Source of the DNA: a virus
Taxonomy: Duplodnaviria > Heunggongvirae > Uroviricota > Caudoviricetes
Length of the DNA stretch: 23,452 bases
Direction: 5' to 3' (one strand)
Virus record (IMG/VR): IMGVR_UViG_2609460346_000013
Both the position numbers and the translations under genes were made by a program. Under the pieces are notes generated by a model, which saw only the letters and a program-made list of their open reading frames with translations, did not search any database and had not been told where the DNA came from. Below are positions 3,238 through 23,452 of the stretch, piece by piece. Within the stretch, counting starts at the first letter, position 1. Every line of letters starts with the position of its first letter.

Positions 3238-3509
3238 GTATTCGTATTGAAATTGGCGAACGTTATGTCGTTACCAGTGACAGCTTTCAGTTTATTCTCC
3301 ACGAGAAAAAGAGAGCGGAAAGCGGTAAAAACGCCGGTCAGGAATGGCTGGCGGTGGTTGGTTATTACCCGAAATTAAGCCAGCTCGTTTCCGGCCTGAT
3401 GCATCACGATATTCTGACCGGAAGCGCAAAGTCTTTTGCTGATTTAAACGGGCAGGTTGAGCAACTCAGCAAGCGTTGTTCAGAGGCTTTTGGCTCATAT
3501 GGCCGTTAA
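3234..3509 (+). CDS. Hypothetical early protein (91 aa)
   Basis: ATGA overlap with the preceding gene. Its 3' end overlaps the A start by 11 nt. Confidence 0.55.
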   Translation: MSIRIEIGERYVVTSDSFQFILHEKKRAESGKNAGQEWLAVVGYYPKLSQLVSGLMHHDILTGSAKSFADLNGQVEQLSKRCSEAFGSYGR

Positions 3510-5778
3510 AGCCTCCGGGCGTTTTGTCCCTCCGTCAGCATTTGCCGCAGGCACCGGTAAGACGTTTACCGGTGCTTATGCATGGAACGCGCCACGCGAG
3601 GCCGTCGGGCGCGAAAGACCCCTTACACGTGACGAGATGCGTCAGGTGCAAGGTGTTTTATCCACGATTAACCGCCTGCCTTACTTTTTGCGTTCGCTGT
3701 TTACTTCACGCTATGACTACATCCGGCGCAATAAAAGCCCGGTGCACGGGTTTTATTTCCTCACATCCACTTTTCAGCGTCGTTTATGGCCGCGCATTGA
3801 GCGCGTGAATCAGCGCCATGAAATGAACACCGACGCGTCGTTACTGTTTCTGGCAGAGCGTGACCACTATGCGCGCCTGCCGGGAATGAATGACAAGGAG
3901 CTGAAAAAATTTGCCGCCCGTATCTCATCGCAGCTTTTCATGATGTATGAGGAACTCTGCGATGCCTGGGTGGATGCCCATGGCGAAAAAGAATCGCTGT
4001 TTACGGATGAGGCGCAGGCTCACCTGTATGGTCATGTTGCTGGCGCTGCACGTGCTTTCAATATTTCCCCGCTCTACTGGAAAAAATACCGTAAAGGACA
4101 GATGACCACGAGGCAGGCATATTCTGCCATTGCCCGCCTGTTTAACGATGAGTGGTGGACTCATCAGCTTAAAGGCCAGCGTATGCGCTGGCATGAGGCG
4201 TTACTGATTGCTGTCGGGGAGGTCAATAAAGACCGTTCTCCTTATGCCAGTAAACATGCCATTCGTGATGTGCGTGCACGCCGCCAGGCAAATCTGGAAT
4301 TTCTTAAATCGTGTGACCTTGAAAACAGGGAAACCGGCGAGCGCATCGACCTTATCAGTAAGGTGATGGGCAGTATTTCTAATCCTGAAATTCGCCGGAT
4401 GGAGCTGATGAACACCATTGCCGGTATTGAGCGTTACGCCGCAGCAGAGGGTGATGTGGGGATGTTTATCACGCTGACCGCGCCGTCAAAGTATCACCCG
4501 ACACGTCAGGTCGGAAAAGGCGAAAGTAAAACCGTCCAGCTAAATCACGGCTGGAACGATGAGGCATTTAATCCAAAGGATGCGCAGCGTTATCTCTGCC
4601 ATATCTGGAGCCTGATGCGCACGGCATTCAAGGATAATGATTTACAGGTCTACGGTTTGCGTGTCGTCGAGCCACACCACGACGGAACGCCGCACTGGCA
4701 TATGATGCTTTTTTGTAATCCACGCCAGCGTAACCAGATTATTGAAATCATGCGTCGCTATGCGCTCAAAGAGGATGGCGACGAAAGAGGAGCCGCGCGA
4801 AACCGTTTTCAGGCAAAACACCTTAACCGGGGCGGTGCTGCGGGATATATCGCGAAATACATCTCAAAAAACATCGACGGCTATGCACTGGATGGTCAGC
4901 TCGATAATGATACCGGTAGGCCGCTGAAAGACACAGCTGCGGCTGTTACCGCATGGGCGTCAACGTGGCGCATTCCGCAATTTAAAACGGTTGGTCTGCC
5001 GACAATGGGGGCTTACCGTGAACTACGCAAATTGCCTCGCGGCGTCAGCATTGCTGATGAGTTTGACGAGCGCGTCGAGGCTGCACGCGCCGCTGCAGAC
5101 AGTGGTGATTTTGCGTTGTATATCAGCGCGCAGGGCGGGGCAAATGTCCCGCGCGATTGTCAGACTGTCAGGGTCGCCCGTAGCCCGTCGGATGACGTTA
5201 ACGAGTACGAGGAAGAAGTCGAGAGAGTGGTCGGCATTTACGCGCCGCATCTCGGCGCGCGTCATATTCATATCACCAGAACGACGGACTGGCGCATTGT
5301 TCCGAAAGTGCCGGTCGTTGAGCCTTTGACTTTAAAAAGCGGCATCGCCGCGCCTCGGAGTCCTGTCAATAACTGTGGAAAGCTCACCGGTGGTGATACT
5401 TCGTTACCGGCTCCCACACCTTCTGAGCACGCCGCAGCAGTGCTTAATCTGGTTGATGACGGTGTTATTGAATGGAATGACCAGGAGGTCGTGAGGGCGC
5501 TCAGGGGCGCATTAAAACGAGGTCTGAGAAGACCAAACCGTCAGCAAAGAAACGGAAGCCCGTTAAAACAGCATGAAATGGCACCATCGGCCAGACTGAC
5601 CCGGTCAGAACGAATGCAAATTACCCGTATCCGCGTTGACCTTGCTCAGAACGGTATCAGGCCGCAGCGATGGGAGCTTGAGGCGCTGGCGCGTGGAGCA
5701 ATTGTAAATTACGACGGGAAAAAATTCACGTATCCAGTCGCTGATGAGTGGCGGGGATTCTCAGCAGTAATGGAGTGA
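3499..5778 (+). CDS. A: Replication initiation endonuclease A (rolling-circle initiator; 759 aa from MAVKASGRF)
   Basis: Large ORF with an HUH-type metal-binding motif (PHWHMMLF). N-terminus matches recalled P2 gpA. The longer ORF from 3457 is an upstream extension. Confidence 0.9.
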   Translation: MAVKASGRFVPPSAFAAGTGKTFTGAYAWNAPREAVGRERPLTRDEMRQVQGVLSTINRLPYFLRSLFTSRYDYIRRNKSPVHGFYFLTSTFQRRLWPRIERVNQRHEMNTDASLLFLAERDHYARLPGMNDKELKKFAARISSQLFMMYEELCDAWVDAHGEKESLFTDEAQAHLYGHVAGAARAFNISPLYWKKYRKGQMTTRQAYSAIARLFNDEWWTHQLKGQRMRWHEALLIAVGEVNKDRSPYASKHAIRDVRARRQANLEFLKSCDLENRETGERIDLISKVMGSISNPEIRRMELMNTIAGIERYAAAEGDVGMFITLTAPSKYHPTRQVGKGESKTVQLNHGWNDEAFNPKDAQRYLCHIWSLMRTAFKDNDLQVYGLRVVEPHHDGTPHWHMMLFCNPRQRNQIIEIMRRYALKEDGDERGAARNRFQAKHLNRGGAAGYIAKYISKNIDGYALDGQLDNDTGRPLKDTAAAVTAWASTWRIPQFKTVGLPTMGAYRELRKLPRGVSIADEFDERVEAARAAADSGDFALYISAQGGANVPRDCQTVRVARSPSDDVNEYEEEVERVVGIYAPHLGARHIHITRTTDWRIVPKVPVVEPLTLKSGIAAPRSPVNNCGKLTGGDTSLPAPTPSEHAAAVLNLVDDGVIEWNDQEVVRALRGALKRGLRRPNRQQRNGSPLKQHEMAPSARLTRSERMQITRIRVDLAQNGIRPQRWELEALARGAIVNYDGKKFTYPVADEWRGFSAVME

Positions 5779-6107
5779 ACGTCGCCAGTTGCGAAAATTA
5801 TTTACAGGGGGCAGCGTTAAGCATCTAAAGATCTTGTTCTATGATTAGAATGTTTCCTCGTTGCACTCTCGTATAGTTATTTAATGGGAAGATGTACTCT
5901 ATATGTTGTGTTTTGGTGATAAATGAAGCCAAAGGAAGGAGATTTTGCTTGATTGATGGGCGCTCTTTGCTATACACCTTGTATTGAGAAGGAGAAGTAA
6001 TCAAGGATTAAGCTGGCTTTTGTCAAAAATCTGAAAAGCTTTTTTGACTGAATACGATAGCGAGTTGTACTATTTGCGCCCTCAAAAGTAACCGGCGGCT
6101 GGGTAAA

Positions 6108-6482
6108 ATGGGGAAGCAAGGCAAAGGCAAAGGCAACAAAAATCAGGTTAAGGTTACGTGGGCTCAGGCGTGGCGGGATGTAATGATAAGAGCCATGTCT
6201 AATGGTCAGTTGATACCTATTACCATCAGTATTATTTTAATGATTGCTGCATGGAGGTTACCAAAAACAGACTTGTCCAATTTAGCCTTCTCTATTGTTG
6301 ATGGCTTTAAGGAGCATTCCTTGGTTGGTTGGGCTATCTCGGTAATAGTGGGTTTGGCTTGGTCTGCACATGCGCGAATCATGAGGCGCTGTTTTAGTTC
6401 CGAGGCACAGAGAATCGGTAACGAGAAAACAAAGTATCAACAAAGACAGACCACTCAAGCCTTGGGTACAAGTGATAAATAG
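6108..6482 (+). CDS. Small membrane protein with two predicted transmembrane helices (124 aa; start uncertain)
   Basis: Hydrophobic segments LIPITISIILMIAAW and LVGWAISVIVGLAW. Lies in the cargo island between A and cos. No recognised domain. Confidence 0.5.
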   Translation: MGKQGKGKGNKNQVKVTWAQAWRDVMIRAMSNGQLIPITISIILMIAAWRLPKTDLSNLAFSIVDGFKEHSLVGWAISVIVGLAWSAHARIMRRCFSSEAQRIGNEKTKYQQRQTTQALGTSDK

Positions 6483-6502
6483 TTGTTTATTTAGGAGTTA
6501 TT

Positions 6503-7060
6503 ATGCTGACAGTGCTGTTTTATGTGCTGTTGGGTTTAGGCGCAGCACACTTCATTTACGAGCGAATCATTTTGCCGTCCATCCGACTTCATTATAGAAA
6601 CCAATTGTTTGCGCTTCGTGATGTCGCTAGGAGGAAAATCATTGATGGAGGTTCCGATACTTCCATGCAAGCGGCAACACTTGTGCATGACTCATTGAAT
6701 AACGCTATCAATAGATTGCATTTACTCACGTTGCCAAACAAATTTCGTGCTCAAAAGCGTATGGCAGAAAACCATGCAATAAGGCAGAAAATTCGGCGTG
6801 AGATAGATGTTTTCAAACGCTGTGATGATAGAGAAGTTGTTGATGTACTGTTTAAATCCGGTCGGATACTTGAAAATGTACTGTTATTCAATAGCTTAAT
6901 GTTATTGCTTTACATGTTTCCATTTGTCCTTGCTGTATGGTTCTGTGTTAGGGTCATAAAGACAGCAAGTAGTTTAGTACAGTGGGTCAAAGGAAGAGAT
7001 TTAGAGGAAGCTATAATGCTGCTTCCTGATACTCAGGTTGAAAAGGTTGTATACGCATAA
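6503..7060 (+). CDS. Membrane protein with N- and C-terminal transmembrane helices (185 aa)
   Basis: AGGAG ribosome-binding site 6 nt upstream. Hydrophobic N-terminus (LTVLFYVLLGLGAAHFIY) and C-terminal helix (LLLYMFPFVLAVWFCVRVI). Followed directly by an intrinsic terminator. Confidence 0.6.
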   Translation: MLTVLFYVLLGLGAAHFIYERIILPSIRLHYRNQLFALRDVARRKIIDGGSDTSMQAATLVHDSLNNAINRLHLLTLPNKFRAQKRMAENHAIRQKIRREIDVFKRCDDREVVDVLFKSGRILENVLLFNSLMLLLYMFPFVLAVWFCVRVIKTASSLVQWVKGRDLEEAIMLLPDTQVEKVVYA

Positions 7061-7062
7061 AA

Positions 7063-7088
7063 ATCACCCCTTAGGGGGTGATTTTTTT
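7063..7088 (+). terminator. Rho-independent terminator
   Basis: 7-bp GC-rich stem (TCACCCC/GGGGTGA) with a TTAG loop, followed by a run of seven T. Confidence 0.8.
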
Positions 7089-7299
7089 ACATGACTTTTG
7101 ATTAGCTGACATTGTAAATCCGCATGTATCAGATGCATTGTTTTGCATGTGGAAATGGGTGTTTTCACTGCCAGCTATCGCTACATGTAGCAAAAACACG
7201 GGCTTAATAAGAAATCATTCTGCCATAAGGCATAACTTCCCCGCGTGCTCAGGTATTGACGTCATAGATATGGATCTTTTTTAATCAAGGTATGGTATT

Positions 7300-8247
7300 A
7301 TGAAGATATTTATTAGTTGGTCAGGTCAGGACAGCCTGGAGATAGCAAAAGTATTACGGGATTGGATACCGAATGTTATTCAAGTAGCTGAGCCGTACGT
7401 ATCAGCGGAAGATATTGATAAAGGCACTCGCTGGGCGACTGATATATCAAAGGAACTTGATGACTCTTCTTATGGGATTATTTGCCTTACAAAAAATAAT
7501 ATTAATGCACCGTGGATAAATTTTGAGGCGGGGGCTTTAGGTAAAAAGGTTGATAAGAGCCGGGTTAGTCCTTTCTTGTTTAAAATTAAACCATCTGAGA
7601 TAACAGGCCCAATATTACAATTCCAGTATACTCGTTCGGATGATAAGAACGATATTTTGAAGTTGATGTTGTCAATAAATAATCAAGCAGGATTTTTGAC
7701 TGAAGAACGCTTAACTAAAGCTTTCGAGCAATGGTGGCCAAGTTTAGAGCGTGAGTTAGATAACATTCAAGATATTAACCCTGTAGATAAAGATTCCACT
7801 AAAAAAACAAAAGGTGATTCGACTTCTGAGATACAAAATCTTTCCAAAATTGTTGAAAGTTTGCTGGATATTAGCCGAACAAATCACCAATTATTGCGTG
7901 ATCCAGCATCATTATTGCCAGAAGAATATGTTAGCAAAATAATAAACAGGGAAGGGCGTAAAGAAACTGTTTTAAAAATTGTAGCTTCTGATTTATTATC
8001 CATGCATCATTCACTAATTCGTGTAAAAAGAAGATTTATTCGTCGTGGTATTGATGAAACATCTAGGAGCGAGTTAATTGAATCATTAAATAAAATGATA
8101 ATGGATTGTTCTAGAGTAATCGCTCACTTAGATAATTATTGTGGGGCTTCATCAAACAATATGTTCAATAGTGCGCTTAGATTGCGGACCAGAAATTTAA
8201 TTGACATGATGGATGAGGAGGATGCAGAACGGGATGAAATGGAATAA
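7300..8247 (+). CDS. TIR-like domain protein with an uncharacterised C-terminal helical domain (315 aa)
   Basis: N-terminus MKIFISWSGQDS matches the TIR first-strand signature. Downstream ICLTKNNINAPWINFEAGAL fits the TIR W-x-x-E block that carries the catalytic glutamate. About 170 C-terminal residues have no recognised motif. Visibly AT-rich. Confidence 0.7.
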   Translation: MKIFISWSGQDSLEIAKVLRDWIPNVIQVAEPYVSAEDIDKGTRWATDISKELDDSSYGIICLTKNNINAPWINFEAGALGKKVDKSRVSPFLFKIKPSEITGPILQFQYTRSDDKNDILKLMLSINNQAGFLTEERLTKAFEQWWPSLERELDNIQDINPVDKDSTKKTKGDSTSEIQNLSKIVESLLDISRTNHQLLRDPASLLPEEYVSKIINREGRKETVLKIVASDLLSMHHSLIRVKRRFIRRGIDETSRSELIESLNKMIMDCSRVIAHLDNYCGASSNNMFNSALRLRTRNLIDMMDEEDAERDEME

Positions 8248-8791
8248 TCAATTTTGACTAATCATAAATAATTTTGCATATATAAACTTATAATGCCGCA
8301 GCCGCTATTTTTCAGCGGCTGTATATCGCTTATAATGGGTATGTTATTTTTATTTTGATAAAATCATTAAAATTGTCGATGTTATATGAATGCACATGTA
8401 TTATTAATGTTAGAAGATTATGCCTGCTTACGGCTATTGTGCTGAATTCAACTATGAACGCATCAGTATTAAAATCGTTCCATGAAATGTTCTTCGTCTA
8501 CAGCAGATGATGGGCAACGAAAAAATGACGCTGAGTGAGTTGGTCGGGGAGAATTGTTAGAGGTATTTATGGAGTGGTTTAATAATATCGGTCAATCCTG
8601 AGTTGCAGCATCACATAGACGATAGGGAATCTCTCCAGTCGTTCTGGAATGGCAGCGTTGAACAACAAGCACAGCGAGGCGTTAGATGCCCATCAGATTG
8701 ACACAGAGGGTTTATGAATCGCTGGGATTTACTTAGTTTGAAAAATAATATATTTATATGTTTTTGTATTGTGTTTGTTAAGGAGTTTGGA

Positions 8792-8998
8792 TTGAAAAGA
8801 AAACTGATTTGTGTTATGGCTTTTTGGGGGGCGTTGCTGGCTGGTTGTAATGAGAGTAATAAAAAAGAAGTTGAGGGTTGTATTGAAAGAGGTGTCCAAT
8901 ATTTTATAGAGATTGGTTCTTACCCTAAATTAAGTGATGGGCGTGATGCTGTAAAAGTTGCTACTGAACGTTGTAATAGAACAATAACGGCTTTCTGA
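8792..8998 (+). CDS. Small lipoprotein (about 68 aa from a TTG start; the ORF track's longer frame starts at 8714)
   Basis: AGGAG at 8781..8785 sits 6 nt before the TTG at 8792. Signal peptide with lipobox (KRKLICVMAFWGALLAGC). Stop is 2 nt before the next ATG. Confidence 0.5.
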   Translation: MKRKLICVMAFWGALLAGCNESNKKEVEGCIERGVQYFIEIGSYPKLSDGRDAVKVATERCNRTITAF

Positions 8999-9000
8999 TA

Positions 9001-9918
9001 ATGGATTATACGAGCTATATAATAGGACAGCTTCAGGTTGAGGATATTATTGATGCAATTAAAGGCGTTAATAATACTAATGTCATAAAAGATTATGTGC
9101 TGCCTGTAGTATTACCAATTATATCTTCTGTGCTGAGTTACTTTATTGCAACTAGGTTGTTTTATCGGCAGGAGTACCTTAAAGCACAAAGAAGAAAGGT
9201 AAGCGTTGTAAATAAATGTATTTATGACTACTTTTCTGCAATGACAACGTTGTTGCAAATTAAAGGGAATTATTATGGTGGGGTAAGTATAAGTGAAAAT
9301 CCTATCGAGAGGGCTTTAGCTTTTCCTGTTGTGGTTTTTTCTGGTGCTCCTCTATCATCAGATTTAAGTGAGTTGGCCTGTATATTGAGTCAAAAGGGAG
9401 TAGGGAATAATAGAGAGCCAGCAAAGACTACTAACTGGGGGGATGCTTTTGCTGTTAGTGATATAGCAAGAAGGTTTAACAGCCTATTGGCTGCATTAAA
9501 TGTTAGGAATGATTTTGATGACACCTATAGAGGAATGATTATTGAATCAACAGGTTCACCTTTGCCTACGATGCGTTTTAAAAATGATGATATTGTTAAT
9601 GCTATAGGTAGTAATAAGGCAGCTTATTACATTGATATTACTGAGCAAATAATGATTATGATAGATGTTTTGTTGCTTGATATTAATCTGTTGCTCAAAG
9701 AGTTGCCATTGTATGCTGAATCGCTGTTTGACAAAAGAGTAATGCAAGAAGATTCAGGGATTCTTAAATTCAATGATTTGCACGAACGTTTTCCTCTACT
9801 TATGAAACCTGTAACGCCACCTTCGATTAAACTCATGTCTGATTATTTGGGGTACAGTGAAGATGAGATCTTACGACGCTATCCATACCCGTTCTTTAAT
9901 ATGCATGATTGTGAATGA
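9001..9918 (+). CDS. Membrane-anchored hypothetical protein (305 aa, one N-proximal transmembrane helix)
   Basis: Hydrophobic segment VLPVVLPIISSVLSYFIATRLF. Tightly coupled to the upstream lipoprotein gene. AT-rich. No recognised domain. Confidence 0.6.
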   Translation: MDYTSYIIGQLQVEDIIDAIKGVNNTNVIKDYVLPVVLPIISSVLSYFIATRLFYRQEYLKAQRRKVSVVNKCIYDYFSAMTTLLQIKGNYYGGVSISENPIERALAFPVVVFSGAPLSSDLSELACILSQKGVGNNREPAKTTNWGDAFAVSDIARRFNSLLAALNVRNDFDDTYRGMIIESTGSPLPTMRFKNDDIVNAIGSNKAAYYIDITEQIMIMIDVLLLDINLLLKELPLYAESLFDKRVMQEDSGILKFNDLHERFPLLMKPVTPPSIKLMSDYLGYSEDEILRRYPYPFFNMHDCE

Positions 9919-10022
9919 ATGTGCATATGTCAGAAGCCGTTTTTATTGTCAGTTATCGTCAGTGCTGGCGCGCTCTTGGAGTGTTCATGCAACTGCATTA
10001 AAACCGCCCCACGAAGCGGGCG

Positions 10023-10041
10023 GGCGAGGCGGGGAAAGCAC
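10023..10041. other. Putative cos cohesive-end sequence GGCGAGGCGGGGAAAGCAC
   Basis: The 19-mer matches the P2 cohesive-end sequence as I recall it. It lies in a GC-rich non-coding stretch just beyond the portal gene terminator, as in P2. Confidence 0.55.
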
Positions 10042-11233: not shown

Positions 11234-11740
11234 CAGTAAAACTCCAGAATGGTGGATGTCAGCGGGGTGCTGATACCGGCGGTGAGTGGCTCATTTAACA
11301 GGGCGTGCATGGTCGCCCAGGCGAGGTCGGCGTGGCTGGCTTCCTCGCTACGGCTGGCCTCATAGGTGGCGCTGCGTCCGCTGCTGGTCATGGTCTTGCG
11401 GATAGCCATGAACGAGCTGGTGATGTCGGTGGCGCTGACGTCATATTCCAGACAGCCACGGCGGATGACGTCTTTTGCCTTGAGCACCATTGCGGTTTTC
11501 ATTTCCGGCGTGTAGCGGATATCGCGTGCGGCGGGATAGAACGAGCGCACGAGCTGGAACACGCCGACACCGAGGCCGGTGGCATCAATTCCGATGTATT
11601 CGACGTTGTATTTTTCGGTGAGTTTGCGGATGGATTCCGCCTGAGTGGCAAAGTCCATGCCTTTCCACTGGTGACGCTCAAGTATTCTGAATTTACCTCC
11701 GGCCACCACCGGCGGTGCCAGCACCACGCATCCGGCGCTG
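11233..11740 (-). pseudogene. P: Terminase ATPase subunit P, C-terminal fragment only (about 165 codons; N-terminal part deleted)
   Basis: The reading frame stops overlapping the Q start as in P2, but only about 165 codons remain instead of about 590. The upstream end abuts a truncated K on the opposite strand. Confidence 0.75.
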
Positions 11741-14131: not shown

Positions 14132-14917
14132 TTATGAGTGATTTTTATTTGATGCTTTGTATTCTAAAACCTTCTTATTGGCGTAAAAGAATTTTGTATA
14201 TGACAGGAATATAACCAGACCTGAAGTGAAATAGACGAGGGATAGTATTAATAATGCTTTTTTGCGACTGTTATTATCTTTAATCTCCAGGCTTAACCAT
14301 TCGGAGTCCTCCTCGTTTAGCTGTAAGAGCTTATTGCAGGCGATTTCAGGAAGTGTGTCTTTTATAAATACGTTTTGCAGTCTCTTGCAATCGGCAAGGC
14401 TATAAGTTTTATTAAATTCAACTGCTTTATTTTTGAAGGATAAAAGAACTTTGTCACTATAAACATAGTACATCATGTTTTTATATGGTATGCCTATGGC
14501 ATCCCTTACTATAACGGATTGTTCGTTGTGTATGTAACATGCGAGGAGAATGTAAAAAATACTGGCCAGAATTACAATTATTGTTTTAATTATGTGTGGT
14601 GGTTTTGTTATGTCACCCCAGATGCGAGTAAGGAAAAAATACGATGTTTTTAGTTTTCCATCAATCAGTCCCTGCTGTATCATTCTCACATTTTCAATGC
14701 CTGATACATTGATTCCGTTAATTATTTTAAATAGTTGAATGTCGCGCCACTCGCGGTCAAGTCTTTTTAATTTTTTGTCTGAATATCCAAAATTGAAATA
14801 ATGTGCAATAAGCCTCATAAGGTTACTTTTACCAAAGCTAAAAAATGCTAATACTGCAAAGCTACAAAGGAAAAAAACGATTAGCCCCCACACATTAGTC
14901 ACATTATAGCTGACCAT
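14132..14917 (-). CDS. Multi-pass membrane protein, cargo gene antisense to the tail operon (261 aa)
   Basis: Strong AAGGAGA ribosome-binding site on the minus strand 8 nt before the ATG at 14917. Hydrophobic helices at the N-terminus, middle and C-terminus. Very AT-rich. Occupies the position of the antisense orf30 between S and V in P2. Confidence 0.7.
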   Translation of the reverse strand: MVSYNVTNVWGLIVFFLCSFAVLAFFSFGKSNLMRLIAHYFNFGYSDKKLKRLDREWRDIQLFKIINGINVSGIENVRMIQQGLIDGKLKTSYFFLTRIWGDITKPPHIIKTIIVILASIFYILLACYIHNEQSVIVRDAIGIPYKNMMYYVYSDKVLLSFKNKAVEFNKTYSLADCKRLQNVFIKDTLPEIACNKLLQLNEEDSEWLSLEIKDNNSRKKALLILSLVYFTSGLVIFLSYTKFFYANKKVLEYKASNKNHS

Positions 14918-15000
14918 TACGCTCTCCTTGAATGTTGTCTGGTAGTTCTACAAATGAATCCAGATAGCATAACTTTTATATATTGTGCAATCTCACATGC

Positions 15001-15636
15001 ATGAACACTCTCGCAAATATTCAGGAACTCGCGCGCGCACTGCGCAACATGATTCGCACCGGCATTATCGTCGAAACCGACCTTAACGCCGGTCGCTGCC
15101 GCGTGCAGACCGGCGGCATGTGCACCGACTGGCTTCAGTGGCTGACCCATCGCGCCGGTCGTTCGCGCACATGGTGGGCACCTTCCGTGGGGGAACAGGT
15201 GCTGATTCTGTCCGTGGGCGGTGAACTCGACACGGCGTTTGTTCTGCCGGGGATTTATTCCGGCGATAATCCCGCGCCGTCTGCGTCGGCGGATGCCCTG
15301 CATATCCGTTTCCCTGACGGGGCGGTGATTGAGTATGAACCCGAAACCAGTGCGCTCACGGTAAGCGGAATTAAAACGGCCAGCGTGACGGCTTCCGGTT
15401 CTGTTACTGCCACTGTGCCGGTGGTCATGGTGAAAGCGTCAACCCGCATCACCCTGGACACACCGGAGGTGGTCTGCACCAACAGGCTGATTACCGGCAC
15501 GCTGGAAGTGCAGAAGGGCGGGACGATGCGCGGCAACATTGAACACACCGGCGGTGAACTCTCATCAAACGGTAAGGTACTGCATACCCATAAACACCCC
15601 GGCGACAGCGGCGGCACAACCGGGAGTCCTCTATGA
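15001..15636 (+). CDS. V: Baseplate spike protein V (211 aa from MNTLANIQ)
   Basis: Length matches recalled P2 gpV. The ORF track's earlier TTG start at 14983 is unlikely. Confidence 0.85.
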   Translation: MNTLANIQELARALRNMIRTGIIVETDLNAGRCRVQTGGMCTDWLQWLTHRAGRSRTWWAPSVGEQVLILSVGGELDTAFVLPGIYSGDNPAPSASADALHIRFPDGAVIEYEPETSALTVSGIKTASVTASGSVTATVPVVMVKASTRITLDTPEVVCTNRLITGTLEVQKGGTMRGNIEHTGGELSSNGKVLHTHKHPGDSGGTTGSPL

Positions 15637-20003: not shown

Positions 20004-20224
20004 GTTGTATAAGCTCTGGTGTGAGATTACATATCTATGGCACAGAGTAAAGCCTAATCTGACAGGCCGCTCTGTGTCTGGAGTAGATTTTAGTAAAGCA
20101 TTATTTTATTAGTGCAAATTCTAATCAATACATTTTATGTATATGATATCCTACGGACTTTAATGACTTGGTTTAGGCTAACCAGATAACACTGAAGGAA
20201 TATTTTTGATAATTAAGGTGCGGT

Positions 20225-20818
20225 ATGTTTACTAAGCGACGATTAAAAAATATTAACTGGGAGGCAAGTTCAGTGATTCTTGCTATGGTTCTCTTTGTTG
20301 GAAATATATTTTATACAAATCATCGTGATGATATAAGCATGGAGGCTGAGAGGGACAGTATCAGAACAATGTTTGCATATGAAATCGCTAATAACCATCG
20401 CGCTCTCACTTTTCTTGATAAAACGAGACATATTGGCTTTGACGAAAATTCGGAGCATTTTGTTGGCGAGCCTTTTGCCATTAATGTCAAATCATTAGGG
20501 GGACCTCGCTTACAGATTGCATTAAACCAGACTGATAAAGTGTTTAAATCCTACTTCGGCGAATTAAGTAAGCTTGATAAAGAGGATGTTACTCTTCTTA
20601 TGGACTATTACCATGAGCAAAGCATCCTGCTGGAGCGTGTAAAATCTACGTTACAGAAGATGAAAAGTGGTAATGATATTAAAGTTGATATTGATGGTTG
20701 CTTATTAGAAGAACACTTCATGAATGAGCTTAATCTTTCTAATATTTTGCTTAAACGCTATAGCTATTTATTATCACAACACGCTAAGGAACATAAAACA
20801 AAAGATTTACATAATTGA
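20225..20818 (+). CDS. N-terminally membrane-anchored hypothetical protein (197 aa), cargo gene at the P2 Z/fun position
   Basis: AAGGTG ribosome-binding site. One N-terminal hydrophobic helix (SSVILAMVLFVGNIFY), then a soluble domain with no recognised motif. AT-rich. Confidence 0.6.
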   Translation: MFTKRRLKNINWEASSVILAMVLFVGNIFYTNHRDDISMEAERDSIRTMFAYEIANNHRALTFLDKTRHIGFDENSEHFVGEPFAINVKSLGGPRLQIALNQTDKVFKSYFGELSKLDKEDVTLLMDYYHEQSILLERVKSTLQKMKSGNDIKVDIDGCLLEEHFMNELNLSNILLKRYSYLLSQHAKEHKTKDLHN

Positions 20819-21044
20819 TAATCTGCTAATGGTTATTCATGGGGTAACTATGTTTTATATGTAATCCAGCCCAGATGAATTATTGATTCTGGATAATAAC
20901 CGCAGAGCGGCATATACCCTGACAGGCAAATGTCCGCTTCTTGCTCAAAGCAGACTGTCAGATTTGATAACTTTTGGGCTATGTAAACTGTCAGTCGGAA
21001 AATGAGTGTGTACAAATCAGGACAGGCGGGGGGAATTGCCCCCA

Positions 21045-21066
21045 TTTTTTTTTTTTTTTTTTTTTT
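21045..21066. repeat. Homopolymeric tract of 22 consecutive T, preceded by an imperfect GC hairpin (GGGGGGAATTGCCCCC)
   Basis: Counted directly. Lies between the cargo gene and the FI remnant. Confidence 0.9.
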
Positions 21067-21148
21067 CCACTGACCAGCCAGGTCAAATAGCGTCTCATGT
21101 ACTACCCAACGGAAAATAGTTGCACCCATTAACCACGGAGTTAAACGG

Positions 21149-21262
21149 ATGAGTGACTATCATCACGGCGTGCAGGTGCTGGAGATTAACGACGGCACCC
21201 GCGTCATTTCCACCGTATCCACAGCCATTGTCGGCATGGTCTGCACGGCTAGCCTCCCGTAA
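21149..21262 (+). pseudogene. FI: Tail sheath FI, N-terminal 37-codon remnant
   Basis: [35 protein letters not shown] matches the recalled P2 FI N-terminus, then runs into a stop after two more codons. Confidence 0.75.
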
Positions 21263-22013
21263 CAGGCTGGAAGCCAGTGTCGCTCCGTCACTGGCCGGAA
21301 TTAAAATCCCGCACATCGACCAGTCGCAGGAGTCCGATGCGAAATTCCTGACCCGTCTTGCTGAACGCAACGGCGGTGAGGTGTCGGTAAAAATGGGAAA
21401 ACTGCTGTTTCTCAAAGCGGGGCAGGGGGGGACGGTCAGCGGTAAAAAAATCCCGCAGATTACCATCACCCGCAGCGACGGCGACCGTCATCATTTTGCG
21501 ATTGCTGACCGTGGAGCCTACACAGGCGTAACGGCAAAGTGGTTACACACCAAAGACCCGAAGCCGCAAAAGCAGAAGGTAAAACTGAAACGCAAAAAGA
21601 AAGAGAAACACCTGCGCGCACTGGAGCACCCGAAAGCGAAACCGGTCACGCAGAAGAAAGAGCCAAAAGTACCGGAAGCGCGCGAAGGTGAATACATGGC
21701 CGGTGAGGCTGACAACGTTTTTGCCCTGACCACGGTATATGCCACGAAAGCACAGGCCATGCGCGCCGCTCAGGCGAAGTGGGATAAACTGCAACGGGGT
21801 GTTGCGGAGTTCTCCATCAGCCTGGCTACTGGTCGGGCAGATATTTACACGGAAACGCCGGTCAGAGTGTCAGGCTTTAAGCGCGTCATAGACGAGCAGG
21901 ACTGGACAATCACTAAGGTGACACATTTTCTGAATAATAGCGGCTTCACGACGTCCCTGGAGCTTGAGGTCAGGCTTTCTGATGTGGAGTACGAAACAGA
22001 AGATGATGAGTGA
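21263..22013 (+). pseudogene. D: Tail protein D, C-terminal fragment (about 240 codons), fused out of frame to the FI remnant
   Basis: The frame carries D-like C-terminal sequence (IPHIDQSQESDAKFLTRLAERNGGEVS ... lysine-rich linker ... RLSDVEYETEDDE). Its first about 36 codons in the ORF track are an out-of-frame read of FI. The exact junction lies within about 21255..21300. Confidence 0.7.
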
Positions 22014-22468: not shown

Positions 22469-22549
22469 ATCCTCAATTTGCCTGCTGCTTAATGCATTGC
22501 AGATGATTTGCTTCCGTTATACTACCGTCAGTTGATAGCGGGAGTATTT

Positions 22550-23452
22550 ATGAATCAATCTTATGGACGGCTGGTCAGTCGGGCGGCGATTGCTGCGACG
22601 GCGATGGCTTCGCTGCTATTGCTGATTAAAATTTTTGCATGGTGGTATACCGGGTCGGTGAGTATTCTCGCCGCGCTGGTGGATTCGCTGGTGGATATCG
22701 GCGCGTCGTTGACGAATTTACTGGTGGTGCGATATTCCCTGCAACCTGCCGACGATAATCACTCGTTTGGTCACGGTAAAGCTGAGTCCCTCGCGGCGCT
22801 GGCGCAAAGTATGTTTATCTCCGGTTCGGCACTATTCCTGTTTTTGACGGGTATTCAACATCTGGTATCTCCAACACCGATGACAGATCCAGGCGTCGGG
22901 GTTATCGTGACAATTGTGGCGCTAATTTGTACGATTATCCTTGTCTCGTTTCAGCGTTGGGTGGTGCGCCGGACGCAAAGCCAGGCGGTGCGGGCTGATA
23001 TGCTACATTACCAGTCTGATGTTATGATGAACGGCGCAATTCTGCTGGCGCTGGGGTTGTCCTGGTACGGCTGGCATCGCGCCGATGCTCTGTTTGCATT
23101 GGGGATCGGCATCTATATTTTATATAGCGCGTTACGCATGGGATATGAGGCGGTACAGTCATTACTGGATCGCGCATTGCCTGATGAGGAACGGCAAGAA
23201 ATTATTGATATCGTGACTTCCTGGCCGGGTGTTAGCGGCGCTCACGATCTTCGCACGCGGCAGTCAGGGCCGACCCGCTTTATTCAGATTCATTTGGAAA
23301 TGGAAGACTCTCTGCCTTTGGTTCAGGCACATATGGTGGCGGATCAGGTAGAGCAGGCTATTTTACGGCGTTTTCCGGGATCGGATGTGATTATCCATCA
23401 GGACCCCTGTTCCGTCGTACCCAGGGAGGGTAAACGGTCTATGCTTTCATAA
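22550..23452 (+). CDS. fieF: Cation diffusion facilitator family Fe/Zn efflux transporter FieF (YiiP), 300 aa
   Basis: Starts [35 protein letters not shown] and carries the CDF signature with multiple transmembrane helices. Matches the enterobacterial FieF sequence as I recall it. GGGAG ribosome-binding site upstream. The stop is the last codon of the window. Confidence 0.9.

What the first reader, a model, noticed from the sequence alone, without database searches (positions are those of the whole stretch)
5779..9918. AT-rich cargo island of five genes between replication gene A and cos
Between A and cos, where P2 carries tin/old, there are three separately organised units instead: a two-gene membrane-protein operon ending in a strong terminator, the TIR-like gene, and a lipoprotein plus 305-aa membrane-anchored protein operon. 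All are visibly AT-richer than the phage backbone, consistent with horizontally acquired cargo. None resembles Tin or Old.
Basis: partly seen in the sequence, partly recalled or inferred. Interest (0 to 1): 0.7.

Follow-up and report, generated by a model that had tools for sequence, protein, structure and literature searches.

The report
Three swappable cargo cassettes in P2 hotspot
The AT-rich stretch between replication gene A and cos of this P2-like prophage is the phage's known variable cargo site; three of its genes are a published anti-phage locus (two membrane proteins plus a TIR protein) and the other two are an untested lipoprotein/membrane-protein pair.

Summary
Window 5779-9918 has 37.6% GC against 53-59% in its flanks and carries five same-strand genes between gene A and the P2 cos 19-mer (10023-10041).

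The island is 99.6% identical to the same locus of phage P2_AC1. Rousset et al. 2022 cloned the equivalent of window 5843-8633 as "2TM + 1TM + TIR". That clone protected against lambda, LF82_P8 and P2. It excludes the last two genes.

Relatives show three independently shuffling modules:
- **M1 (5899-7148):** the 2TM+1TM operon with a strong terminator. It occurs in P2-like hotspots without the TIR gene.
- **M2 (7185-8486):** a TIR protein with a helical C-terminal domain and an invariant Glu76. It occurs alone in P2 hotspots, on small plasmids and in chromosomes.
- **M3 (8642-9918):** a 68-aa lipoprotein plus a 305-aa single-pass membrane protein. It occurs alone in other P2 hotspots.

The published clone therefore probably holds two stacked modules, and which one defends is unresolved.

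M3 is uncharacterised. Its 305-aa protein belongs to an unnamed family (170 cluster representatives) with no Pfam, PADLOC, PDB or BFVD match. Distant members lack the lipoprotein; two of those examined sit on an attC site in an integron-type array.

Overall this is a known hotspot and a known system, plus one plausible new defence or exclusion candidate.

The parts
5779..5898 (.). Left junction of the hotspot, from the stop of gene A to the start of M1 homology
   Evidence: Homology to other P2-like phages ends at about 5777-5780. GC falls from 0.53 to 0.38 here.
5899..7148 (+). Module M1: the 2TM+1TM membrane-protein operon with its own upstream region and terminator
   Evidence: Nucleotide homology of 77.5-77.8% to L055 and L056, where the operon lies between A and the portal gene without a TIR gene.
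6108..6482 (+). ORF1, 124 aa, lysine-rich N-terminus and two hydrophobic helices (PADLOC '2TM-TIR')
   Evidence: PADLOC PDLC02978 at 2.2e-58 and phrog_33772 at 9e-76. The hydropathy scan flags one segment at about 29-51. The second helix, about 72-89, is read from the sequence and falls below the scan threshold.
6503..7060 (+). ORF2, 185 aa, N-terminal transmembrane helix plus a long C-terminal hydrophobic stretch at 122-159 (PADLOC '1TM-TIR')
   Evidence: PADLOC PDLC02977 at 2.7e-75 and phrog_24550 at 2e-94. Hydropathy.
7059..7086 (+). Intrinsic terminator closing M1
   Evidence: RNA fold of -17.8 kcal/mol, z = -5.6, 0 of 200 shuffles as stable, followed by a T-run.
7185..8486 (+). Module M2: the TIR gene with its own upstream region and downstream hairpin
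   Evidence: Nucleotide homology of 79.5% to L047, where this module alone lies between A and cos/portal.
7300..8247 (+). TIR protein with a helical C-terminal domain, 315 aa; TIR domain about 1-155, invariant Glu76 in the APWxNFEAG motif
8298..8322 (+). GC-rich hairpin after the TIR gene, with no T-run
   Evidence: Fold of -17.3 kcal/mol, z = -3.3.
8642..9918 (+). Module M3: the lipoprotein plus 305-aa membrane-protein operon
   Evidence: Nucleotide homology of 94-97% starting exactly at 8642 in L001, L005-L007 and L010, which lack M1 and M2. The published AC1 clone ends at 8633.
8792..8998 (+). 68-aa lipoprotein precursor with lipobox LLAG|C; the 50-aa mature part has two further conserved Cys
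   Evidence: Alignment with the 60%-identical homologue keeps the lipobox, Cys30, Cys61 and the C-terminal ERCNRTITAF. RefSeq annotates this 68-aa form in MS 16-3. phrog_32041 at 1.5e-37.
9001..9918 (+). 305-aa protein: short acidic N-terminal helix, one transmembrane helix (about 31-54) and a cytoplasmic all-helical bundle; start lies 2 nt after the lipoprotein stop
   Evidence: AF2 model with pLDDT 88.6 and pTM 0.82. Member of a family of 170 representatives. No Pfam, PADLOC, PDB or BFVD match.
10023..10041 (+). P2 cos cohesive-end 19-mer, just beyond the right limit of the hotspot
   Evidence: Exact single match.

Best explanation
The interval is the variable A-cos cargo hotspot of a P2-like (AC1-type) prophage. 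It is filled with three independently exchangeable cassettes. M1 is an operon of two small membrane proteins closed by a strong terminator. M2 is a single gene for a TIR protein with a helical C-terminal domain. M3 is a tightly spaced operon (2 nt between stop and start) of a small periplasmic lipoprotein and a single-pass inner-membrane protein with a cytoplasmic helical bundle.

Shown: M1+M2 together are the experimentally validated '2TM+1TM+TIR' anti-phage locus of phage AC1.

Inferred mechanism for M2: it is a self-contained sensor-effector. The C-terminal helical domain senses a phage cue or drives assembly, and the TIR domain cleaves NAD+ through Glu76. Infection aborts by NAD+ depletion, or possibly through a signalling product.

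Inferred for M1: it is a separate membrane-acting module, not an obligate effector of M2.

Inferred for M3: it is a second envelope-level module, most likely anti-phage (exclusion or abortive infection). In distant relatives its large protein appears to work without the lipoprotein.
For: Hotspot and cargo: there is a sharp GC break. The flanks are present in 2161 of 5426 E. coli genomes, but the island in 14-15. Other phages carry different cargo at the same site.

Known system: the three proteins hit PADLOC 2TM-TIR, 1TM-TIR and TIR-TM at 1e-58 to 1e-118. The locus is 99.6% identical to AC1. The primers of clone pFD240 map to window 5843 and 8633, and the paper reports defence against lambda, LF82_P8 and P2.

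Module independence: M2 occurs alone in the P2 hotspot in L047 (only 206 bp between A and the TIR gene) and in L048/L049. It also occurs alone on small Klebsiella plasmids and in Serratia, Vibrio and Burkholderia chromosomes. M1 occurs without M2 in L055 and L056. M3 occurs without M1 or M2 in L001, L005-L007, L010 and L011. The nucleotide homology blocks are discrete: 5899-7148, 7185-8486 and 8642 onward. A terminator separates M1 from M2. GC3 differs between modules.

TIR chemistry: TIR fold and an invariant Glu76 with its surrounding motif.

M3: the pair is conserved at 52-57% identity, always inside the P2 hotspot. The wider family sits in mobile or defence-type contexts. Examples are integron-type arrays with an attC site against the gene in L020 and L018, and an array in L026. 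Others lie after hsdM-hsdS, two genes downstream of an Avs2-like protein, and in a conjugative-plasmid accessory region.
Against: In complete E. coli genomes, M1 and M2 appear only together, in one near-clonal arrangement. The separate occurrences come from draft, Klebsiella and viral-contig data, at 74-86% protein identity (L047 78%, L048/L049 74%, L055/L056 85-86%). Separability in relatives does not prove functional independence here, and the published hypothesis that TIR signals to the transmembrane proteins is not excluded.

No NADase activity, trigger or membrane effect was measured.

For M3, the AC1 lysogen showed no protection beyond what the M1+M2 clone gave on an eight-phage panel. 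A census of 61 neighbouring genes of distant family members was heterogeneous, with few defence hits. The fold has no informative match.
Confidence: 0.75

Rival explanations
1. M1 and M2 form one obligate three-gene, Thoeris-like system. On infection the TIR protein makes a nucleotide signal from NAD+, which activates the two membrane proteins to permeabilise the membrane. This is the hypothesis of Rousset et al. 2022.
For: The three genes were cloned and shown active together. DefenseFinder and PADLOC model them as one system. They are always together in the 14 complete E. coli genomes. They share a strand and lie close together.
Against: A strong terminator and a 239-bp spacer separate the operon from the TIR gene. 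The TIR gene alone occupies the same hotspot in L047-L049, and stands alone on plasmids and chromosomes. The operon occurs without TIR in L055 and L056. ORF1 and ORF2 have no recognisable nucleotide-binding domain.
Confidence: 0.3
2. M3 is not anti-phage. It is a lysogenic-conversion factor acting on the host envelope, such as serum or stress resistance or surface modification, comparable in role to lambda Bor.
For: It encodes a small lipoprotein and a membrane protein. The lysogen shows no extra protection on the published phage panel. P2 hotspots also carry non-defence cargo such as cdtABC toxin genes.
Against: Distant homologues of the 305-aa protein lack the lipoprotein and sit in integron-type arrays, after a type I R-M operon and two genes from Avs2. 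The bulk of the protein is predicted to be cytoplasmic (positive-inside rule), which fits a surface factor poorly.
Confidence: 0.25
3. The AT-rich interval is decaying or non-functional DNA in a defective prophage, and the ORFs are no longer under selection.
For: The prophage in this window lacks about 10.7 kb relative to AC1, including capsid, terminase and tail genes.
Against: All five ORFs are intact and 99-100% identical to those of the viable phage AC1 and of 14 other genomes. Diverged homologues keep full length and conserved motifs.
Confidence: 0.03

Closest known systems
The '2TM + 1TM + TIR' locus of P2-like phage AC1 (Rousset et al. 2022, PMC9122126; DefenseFinder Rst_2TM_1TM_TIR; PADLOC 2TM-TIR/1TM-TIR/TIR-TM)
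   Same: Window 5843-8633 matches the cloned fragment end to end: both primers match exactly, and the wider interval 5500-10022 is 99.6% identical to AC1. All three PADLOC models match over their full length.
   Different: ORF1 lacks one GGCAAA (Gly-Lys) repeat present in AC1. The comparative data here suggest that the published 'system' is two separable modules.
The P2 A-cos defence hotspot (tin/old locus of P2; Rousset 2022; Moura de Sousa et al. 2026, PMC13586616)
   Same: Same position between gene A and cos, same pattern of rapid modular replacement of cargo, and AT-rich cargo.
   Different: It carries neither Tin nor Old. Three modules are stacked, one of which (M3) is in no defence database.
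[not shown]
   Different: No detectable sequence match to any solved TIR. The C-terminal helical domain is specific to this family. Trigger and products are unknown.
Thoeris (ThsB TIR plus ThsA effector)
   Same: A TIR protein encoded next to putative effector genes; this was the published working hypothesis.
   Different: ORF1 and ORF2 have no SIR2, SLOG or Macro signal-binding domain, and the TIR gene is frequently alone.
Phage envelope-level exclusion proteins (T5 Llp and phi80/N15 Cor lipoproteins; T4 Imm/Sp), recalled from memory
   Same: M3 combines a small prophage-encoded lipoprotein carrying a probable disulfide with an inner-membrane protein.
   Different: No sequence similarity was found; the best lipoprotein family hit is EexN at E = 0.083. 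The large protein is mostly cytoplasmic, and its distant relatives lack any lipoprotein.

Membership tests
Rst_2TM_1TM_TIR (PADLOC 2TM-TIR / 1TM-TIR / TIR-TM) | Three adjacent genes each matching the family profile | tested here: met
   PDLC02978 at 2.2e-58, PDLC02977 at 2.7e-75 and PDLC03016 at 2.3e-118, all full length.
Rst_2TM_1TM_TIR | Identity with the type locus that was cloned and tested (AC1, pFD240) | tested here: met
   The interval 5500-10022 is 99.6% identical to AC1, and both cloning primers match exactly at 5843 and 8633.
Rst_2TM_1TM_TIR | Anti-phage activity | not testable with these tools
   Reported for the AC1 clone against lambda, LF82_P8 and P2 (PMC9122126).
Rst_2TM_1TM_TIR | The three genes form one co-inherited functional unit | tested here: not met
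   TIR occurs alone in L047-L052 and L040-L046. The 2TM+1TM operon occurs without TIR in L055 and L056. A terminator lies between them. In the 14 complete E. coli genomes they are always together.
TIR-domain NAD+ hydrolases | TIR fold | tested here: met
   [not shown]
TIR-domain NAD+ hydrolases | Conserved catalytic glutamate | tested here: inconclusive
   Glu76 in APWxNFEAG is invariant in 43 homologues. Its equivalence to the catalytic Glu of solved NADase TIRs was not checked residue by residue.
TIR-domain NAD+ hydrolases | NAD+ cleavage activity | not testable with these tools
   Needs a biochemical assay.
Thoeris | ThsA-type effector with a SIR2, Macro or SLOG domain next to the TIR gene | tested here: not met
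   No Pfam domain in ORF1 or ORF2 and no Thoeris model in PADLOC.
P2 Old / Tin | Sequence match to Old (AAA+TOPRIM) or Tin | tested here: not met
   No such hit for any of the five proteins in Pfam or PADLOC.
Bacterial lipoproteins (ORF4) | Signal peptide ending in a lipobox L-[ASV]-G-C | tested here: met
   MKRKLICVMAFWGALLAG|C. The lipobox is conserved in the two homologues aligned and is readable in the L011 homologue (LLSGC).
Integron gene cassettes (distant homologues of the 305-aa protein, not the window itself) | A single ORF bounded by attC sites within an array | tested here: met
   L020: attC-like elements TAAC...GTTA at 5931-5983 and 6866-6958 flank the gene and fold as hairpins. 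Arrays of related repeats occur in L018 and L026. No attC-like site is seen in the window island.

The most novel reading that the evidence does not exclude
Two linked claims. (a) M3, the lipoprotein plus 305-aa membrane protein, is a previously unrecognised anti-phage or superinfection-exclusion system. It would found a wider, unnamed family spread by P2 hotspots, integron cassettes and plasmids. (b) The database entry '2TM_1TM_TIR' lumps two autonomous systems: a stand-alone TIR protein with a helical C-terminal domain, and a two-gene membrane module.
Probability: 0.35. Interest if true: 0.55.

Novelty: already known. Interest (0 to 1): 0.35.

Why it matters
The hotspot and three of its five genes are already published, so the finding adds little as stated. 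Two points are useful.

First, defence-annotation tools score 2TM+1TM+TIR as one three-gene system. The comparative data here suggest two autonomous modules. That would change how orphan TIR genes of this large family (over 1500 relatives) are annotated, and which component should be studied mechanistically.

Second, the lipoprotein/305-aa pair sits in a proven defence hotspot and was left out of the published clone. It belongs to an unnamed family carried on mobile elements, so it is a cheap and well-defined candidate for a new envelope-associated defence or exclusion function.

Tried and rejected
- **Family searches on the last two genes.** Pfam, NCBIfam and PADLOC gave nothing for the lipoprotein or the 305-aa protein. 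This holds for the window proteins and for 61 family members.
- **Locus searches.** The word-indexed protein search found only 2 clusters for the 305-aa protein. The first genome-contig scan with close sequences found nothing. The 61-sequence alignment was too diverse for locus finding.
- **Neighbour census.** A Pfam and PADLOC scan of 61 ORFs around nine distant homologues was heterogeneous. The defence-model hits included one Avs2-like protein and scattered single hits (SspA/DndA, capP, ZorB/MotB, RmrA), so it is not decisive.
- **attC scanning.** Two home-made ungapped attC scanners failed even on attC sites visible by eye. They were discarded, and no family-wide integron fraction is claimed.
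- **Junction repeats.** The search for repeats at module junctions returned only short, low-identity two-copy matches.
- **Promoter scan.** The promoter consensus scan showed no excess over shuffles (17 against 14.8) and was not used to define promoters.
- **Literature.** Searches for the protein accessions and for '2TM_1TM_TIR' found no mechanistic follow-up.
- **Solved TIR relatives.** A phmmer search of the TIR protein against PDB sequences found none.
Full report
**1. Observation**

The interval 5779-9918 lies between the stop of the P2-type replication gene A (3457-5778) and the P2 cos 19-mer at 10023-10041. It holds five + strand ORFs: 124, 185, 315, 94 (more likely 68) and 305 aa.

The island is 37.6% GC. 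Gene A is 53.4%, the cos region 58.9% and the portal gene 52.9%. GC3 is 0.23-0.46 inside and 0.55-0.64 outside, and both edges are sharp.

The hairpin after the second gene is a strong intrinsic terminator: -17.8 kcal/mol, z = -5.6, with a T-run. The third gene is a real TIR gene (Pfam TIR_2 at 4.7e-10). The fourth gene most plausibly starts at TTG 8792 behind AAGGAG and encodes a lipoprotein precursor with lipobox LLAG|C. Its stop lies 2 nt before the ATG of the fifth gene.

**2. The site is a swapped cargo site**

The flanks match 2161 of 5426 complete E. coli genomes. The whole island occurs in only 14, and the last gene pair in 15. Other P2-like phages carry cdtABC, Fic/VbhT, DUF3850, DUF4209, a reverse transcriptase, an exoribonuclease and other cargo at the same site.

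**3. Identity with a published locus**

The island is 99.6% identical to the same locus of Escherichia phage P2_AC1. Rousset et al. 2022 (PMC9122126) found that an AC1 lysogen resists lambda and LF82_P8. [quoted passage not shown]

Their Table S2 gives clone pFD240 as "2TM + 1TM + TIR", with its primers. The primers map exactly to window 5843 and 8633. PADLOC recognises the three proteins as 2TM-TIR, 1TM-TIR and TIR-TM, at 1e-58 to 1e-118.

The first three genes are therefore the type example of a known, experimentally validated system. The clone stops 9 nt before the point where the last module begins. The lipoprotein and 305-aa genes were never tested on their own, and AC1's own annotation omits the lipoprotein.

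**4. Three modules rather than a 3+2 split**

BLAST of the island against every locus fetched gives three discrete homology blocks.

- **M1 (5899-7148)** is 77.5-77.8% identical at the nucleotide level to two IMG/VR P2-like contigs, L055 and L056. There the 2TM and 1TM genes, at 85-86% protein identity, are followed directly by the portal gene with no TIR gene.
- **M2 (7185-8486)** is 79.5% identical to E. coli draft locus L047. There the TIR gene (78% protein identity) is the only gene between A and the portal gene, with just 206 bp separating A from it. The same holds in Klebsiella L048/L049 at 74%.
- **More distant TIR homologues also stand alone.** The family has 1510 hits at E <= 1e-5. 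Members sit alone on small mobilisable Klebsiella plasmids, in a Serratia chromosome, at a prophage edge, in Vibrio, and beside an OLD-family nuclease in Burkholderia.
- **M3 (8642 onward)** is 94-97% identical to loci in E. coli MS 16-3 and Salmonella Potsdam prophages that lack M1 and M2. Homologous pairs at 57% and 52% identity lie in the same hotspot in L004 and L011, and in L011 the pair is the only cargo.

Three further observations agree with separate modules. A terminator lies between M1 and M2. The spacers are 239 and 544 bp. GC3 differs between modules: M1 0.39-0.46, M2 0.30, M3 0.23-0.30.

It also suggests that the database "three-gene system" is two stacked modules.

Caveat: in complete E. 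coli genomes M1 and M2 occur only together, in a single near-clonal arrangement. The published clone was not dissected, so functional dependence is not excluded.

**5. M2 mechanism**

The motif A70-P-W-x-N-F-E76-A-G is invariant across 43 homologues down to 40% identity. Its position matches the catalytic glutamate context W-x-x-x-E of NADase TIRs. That equivalence rests on established knowledge of TIR enzymes and was not superposed residue by residue here.

The C-terminal half is helical and variable, apart from one motif at residues 183-210.

Because this gene so often stands alone, I favour a self-contained sensor-plus-NADase abortive-infection protein (inference). The Thoeris-like signalling model of the original paper is the main rival. 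ORF1 and ORF2 carry no recognisable ligand-binding domain.

**6. M3**

*The lipoprotein.* The mature part is 50 aa with two conserved cysteines, probably forming a periplasmic disulfide. Its +2 residue is Asn here but Asp in both homologues. By the E. coli +2 sorting rule (established knowledge), its membrane of residence is therefore ambiguous.

*The 305-aa protein.* It has an acidic N-terminal helix of about 30 aa. One transmembrane helix follows (about 31-54), and then a cluster of Arg/Lys. By the positive-inside rule it should be N-out/C-in (inference). Its AF2 model is confident (pLDDT 88.6, pTM 0.82). The transmembrane helix continues into a 70-residue helix packed in an all-helical bundle.

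*The wider family.* Exhaustive HMMER finds 170 cluster representatives, 79 of them at E <= 1e-10. Those aligned are full length at about 25% identity, with conserved K88, R104, N158, R169, E215 and D222. No member hits Pfam or PADLOC convincingly, and there is no informative PDB or BFVD structural match.

*Contexts of distant members.* The distant members inspected for it (L012, L020) have no lipoprotein gene upstream. The family appears in marine gammaproteobacteria, Nitrosomonas and Desulfobulbaceae.
- In L020 the gene is flanked on both sides by attC-like elements that fold as hairpins.
- In L018 an attC-like repeat lies immediately upstream of the gene.
- In L026 the gene lies inside an array of such repeats.
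- One member follows hsdM-hsdS.
- One lies two genes downstream of an Avs2-like gene.
- One lies in the accessory region of an Erwinia conjugative plasmid.

*Weighing it.* This is the distribution expected of a mobile accessory gene, possibly a defence gene. However, a 61-gene neighbour census was heterogeneous. The AC1 lysogen also showed nothing beyond the M1+M2 phenotype on eight phages.

I commit to an envelope-associated anti-phage function (exclusion or abortive infection) at roughly 0.4-0.45. The P2-specific lipoprotein would be a periplasmic accessory contacting the N-terminal helix. A non-phage lysogenic-conversion role is the main rival, at about 0.25.

**7. Verdict**

The hotspot and the TIR locus are already known, essentially from this very sequence. 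Two things go beyond the literature: evidence that 2TM+1TM and TIR are separable modules, and the delineation of M3 as an untested candidate belonging to an unnamed, mobile-element-borne family. Interest is modest.

Noticed in passing
window 11737-11740 and 21250-21253: Relative to phage AC1 the prophage has two deletions of about 5.3 kb each, with a 4-bp overlap at each junction. One runs from inside terminase P (only the Terminase_6C part remains, 11236-11727) into the lysis region. The other runs from FI into gene D (a partial Phage_GPD remains, 21153-22010). The prophage is therefore defective but keeps all of its cargo loci.
   Followed up: partly
window 22508-23452: The sequence beyond ogr encodes a host cation-efflux (CDF, FieF-like) protein, so the right prophage end is near 22471. 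Related Salmonella prophages sit next to cpxRA/cpxP.
   Followed up: partly
window 14132-15303 (- strand): A second AT-rich patch lies between tail genes S and V, at the position of P2 orf30. GC is about 0.35 in the core windows and 0.41 over the whole interval. It holds two ORFs of 261 and 128 aa with no Pfam or PADLOC hit; AC1 annotates only the 261-aa gene.
   Followed up: partly
window 20004-21150: A third AT-rich patch (GC 0.37) lies at the Z/fun position between G and FI. It holds a 197-aa ORF (20225-20818) with no Pfam or PADLOC hit. This is the second known P2 cargo hotspot.
   Followed up: partly
window 6114-6140: ORF1 has two GGCAAA (Gly-Lys) repeats where the AC1 clone sequence has three (375-nt against 381-nt CDS). 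This is a small repeat-number polymorphism in the lysine-rich N-terminus.
   Followed up: no
window 8458-8486 versus 9987-10015: The right edge of M2 carries a degenerate copy (about 16 of 22 nt, by eye) of the conserved sequence that precedes cos. In L047 the two alignments overlap by 28 nt. This may be a scar showing that M3 was inserted beside an M2-only hotspot.
   Followed up: partly
E. coli GCEC19 (hit H30): In one genome the island is interrupted or extended by an IS21-family ISEc12 element (istA/istB). L011 likewise has an IS21-like insertion truncating the portal gene.
   Followed up: no
phage mEp390 (JQ182729, 33766-34218): A lambdoid phage encodes a homologue of the TIR domain only (41% identity over residues 1-150). 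The TIR domain is therefore shared with unrelated temperate phages.
   Followed up: no
L004 1808-3109 and L001 4143-5144: In other P2 hotspots M3 is followed by further unannotated genes: a 433-aa protein with a weak MauJ hit, and a 333-aa hypothetical protein. These are further untested hotspot cargo.
   Followed up: no
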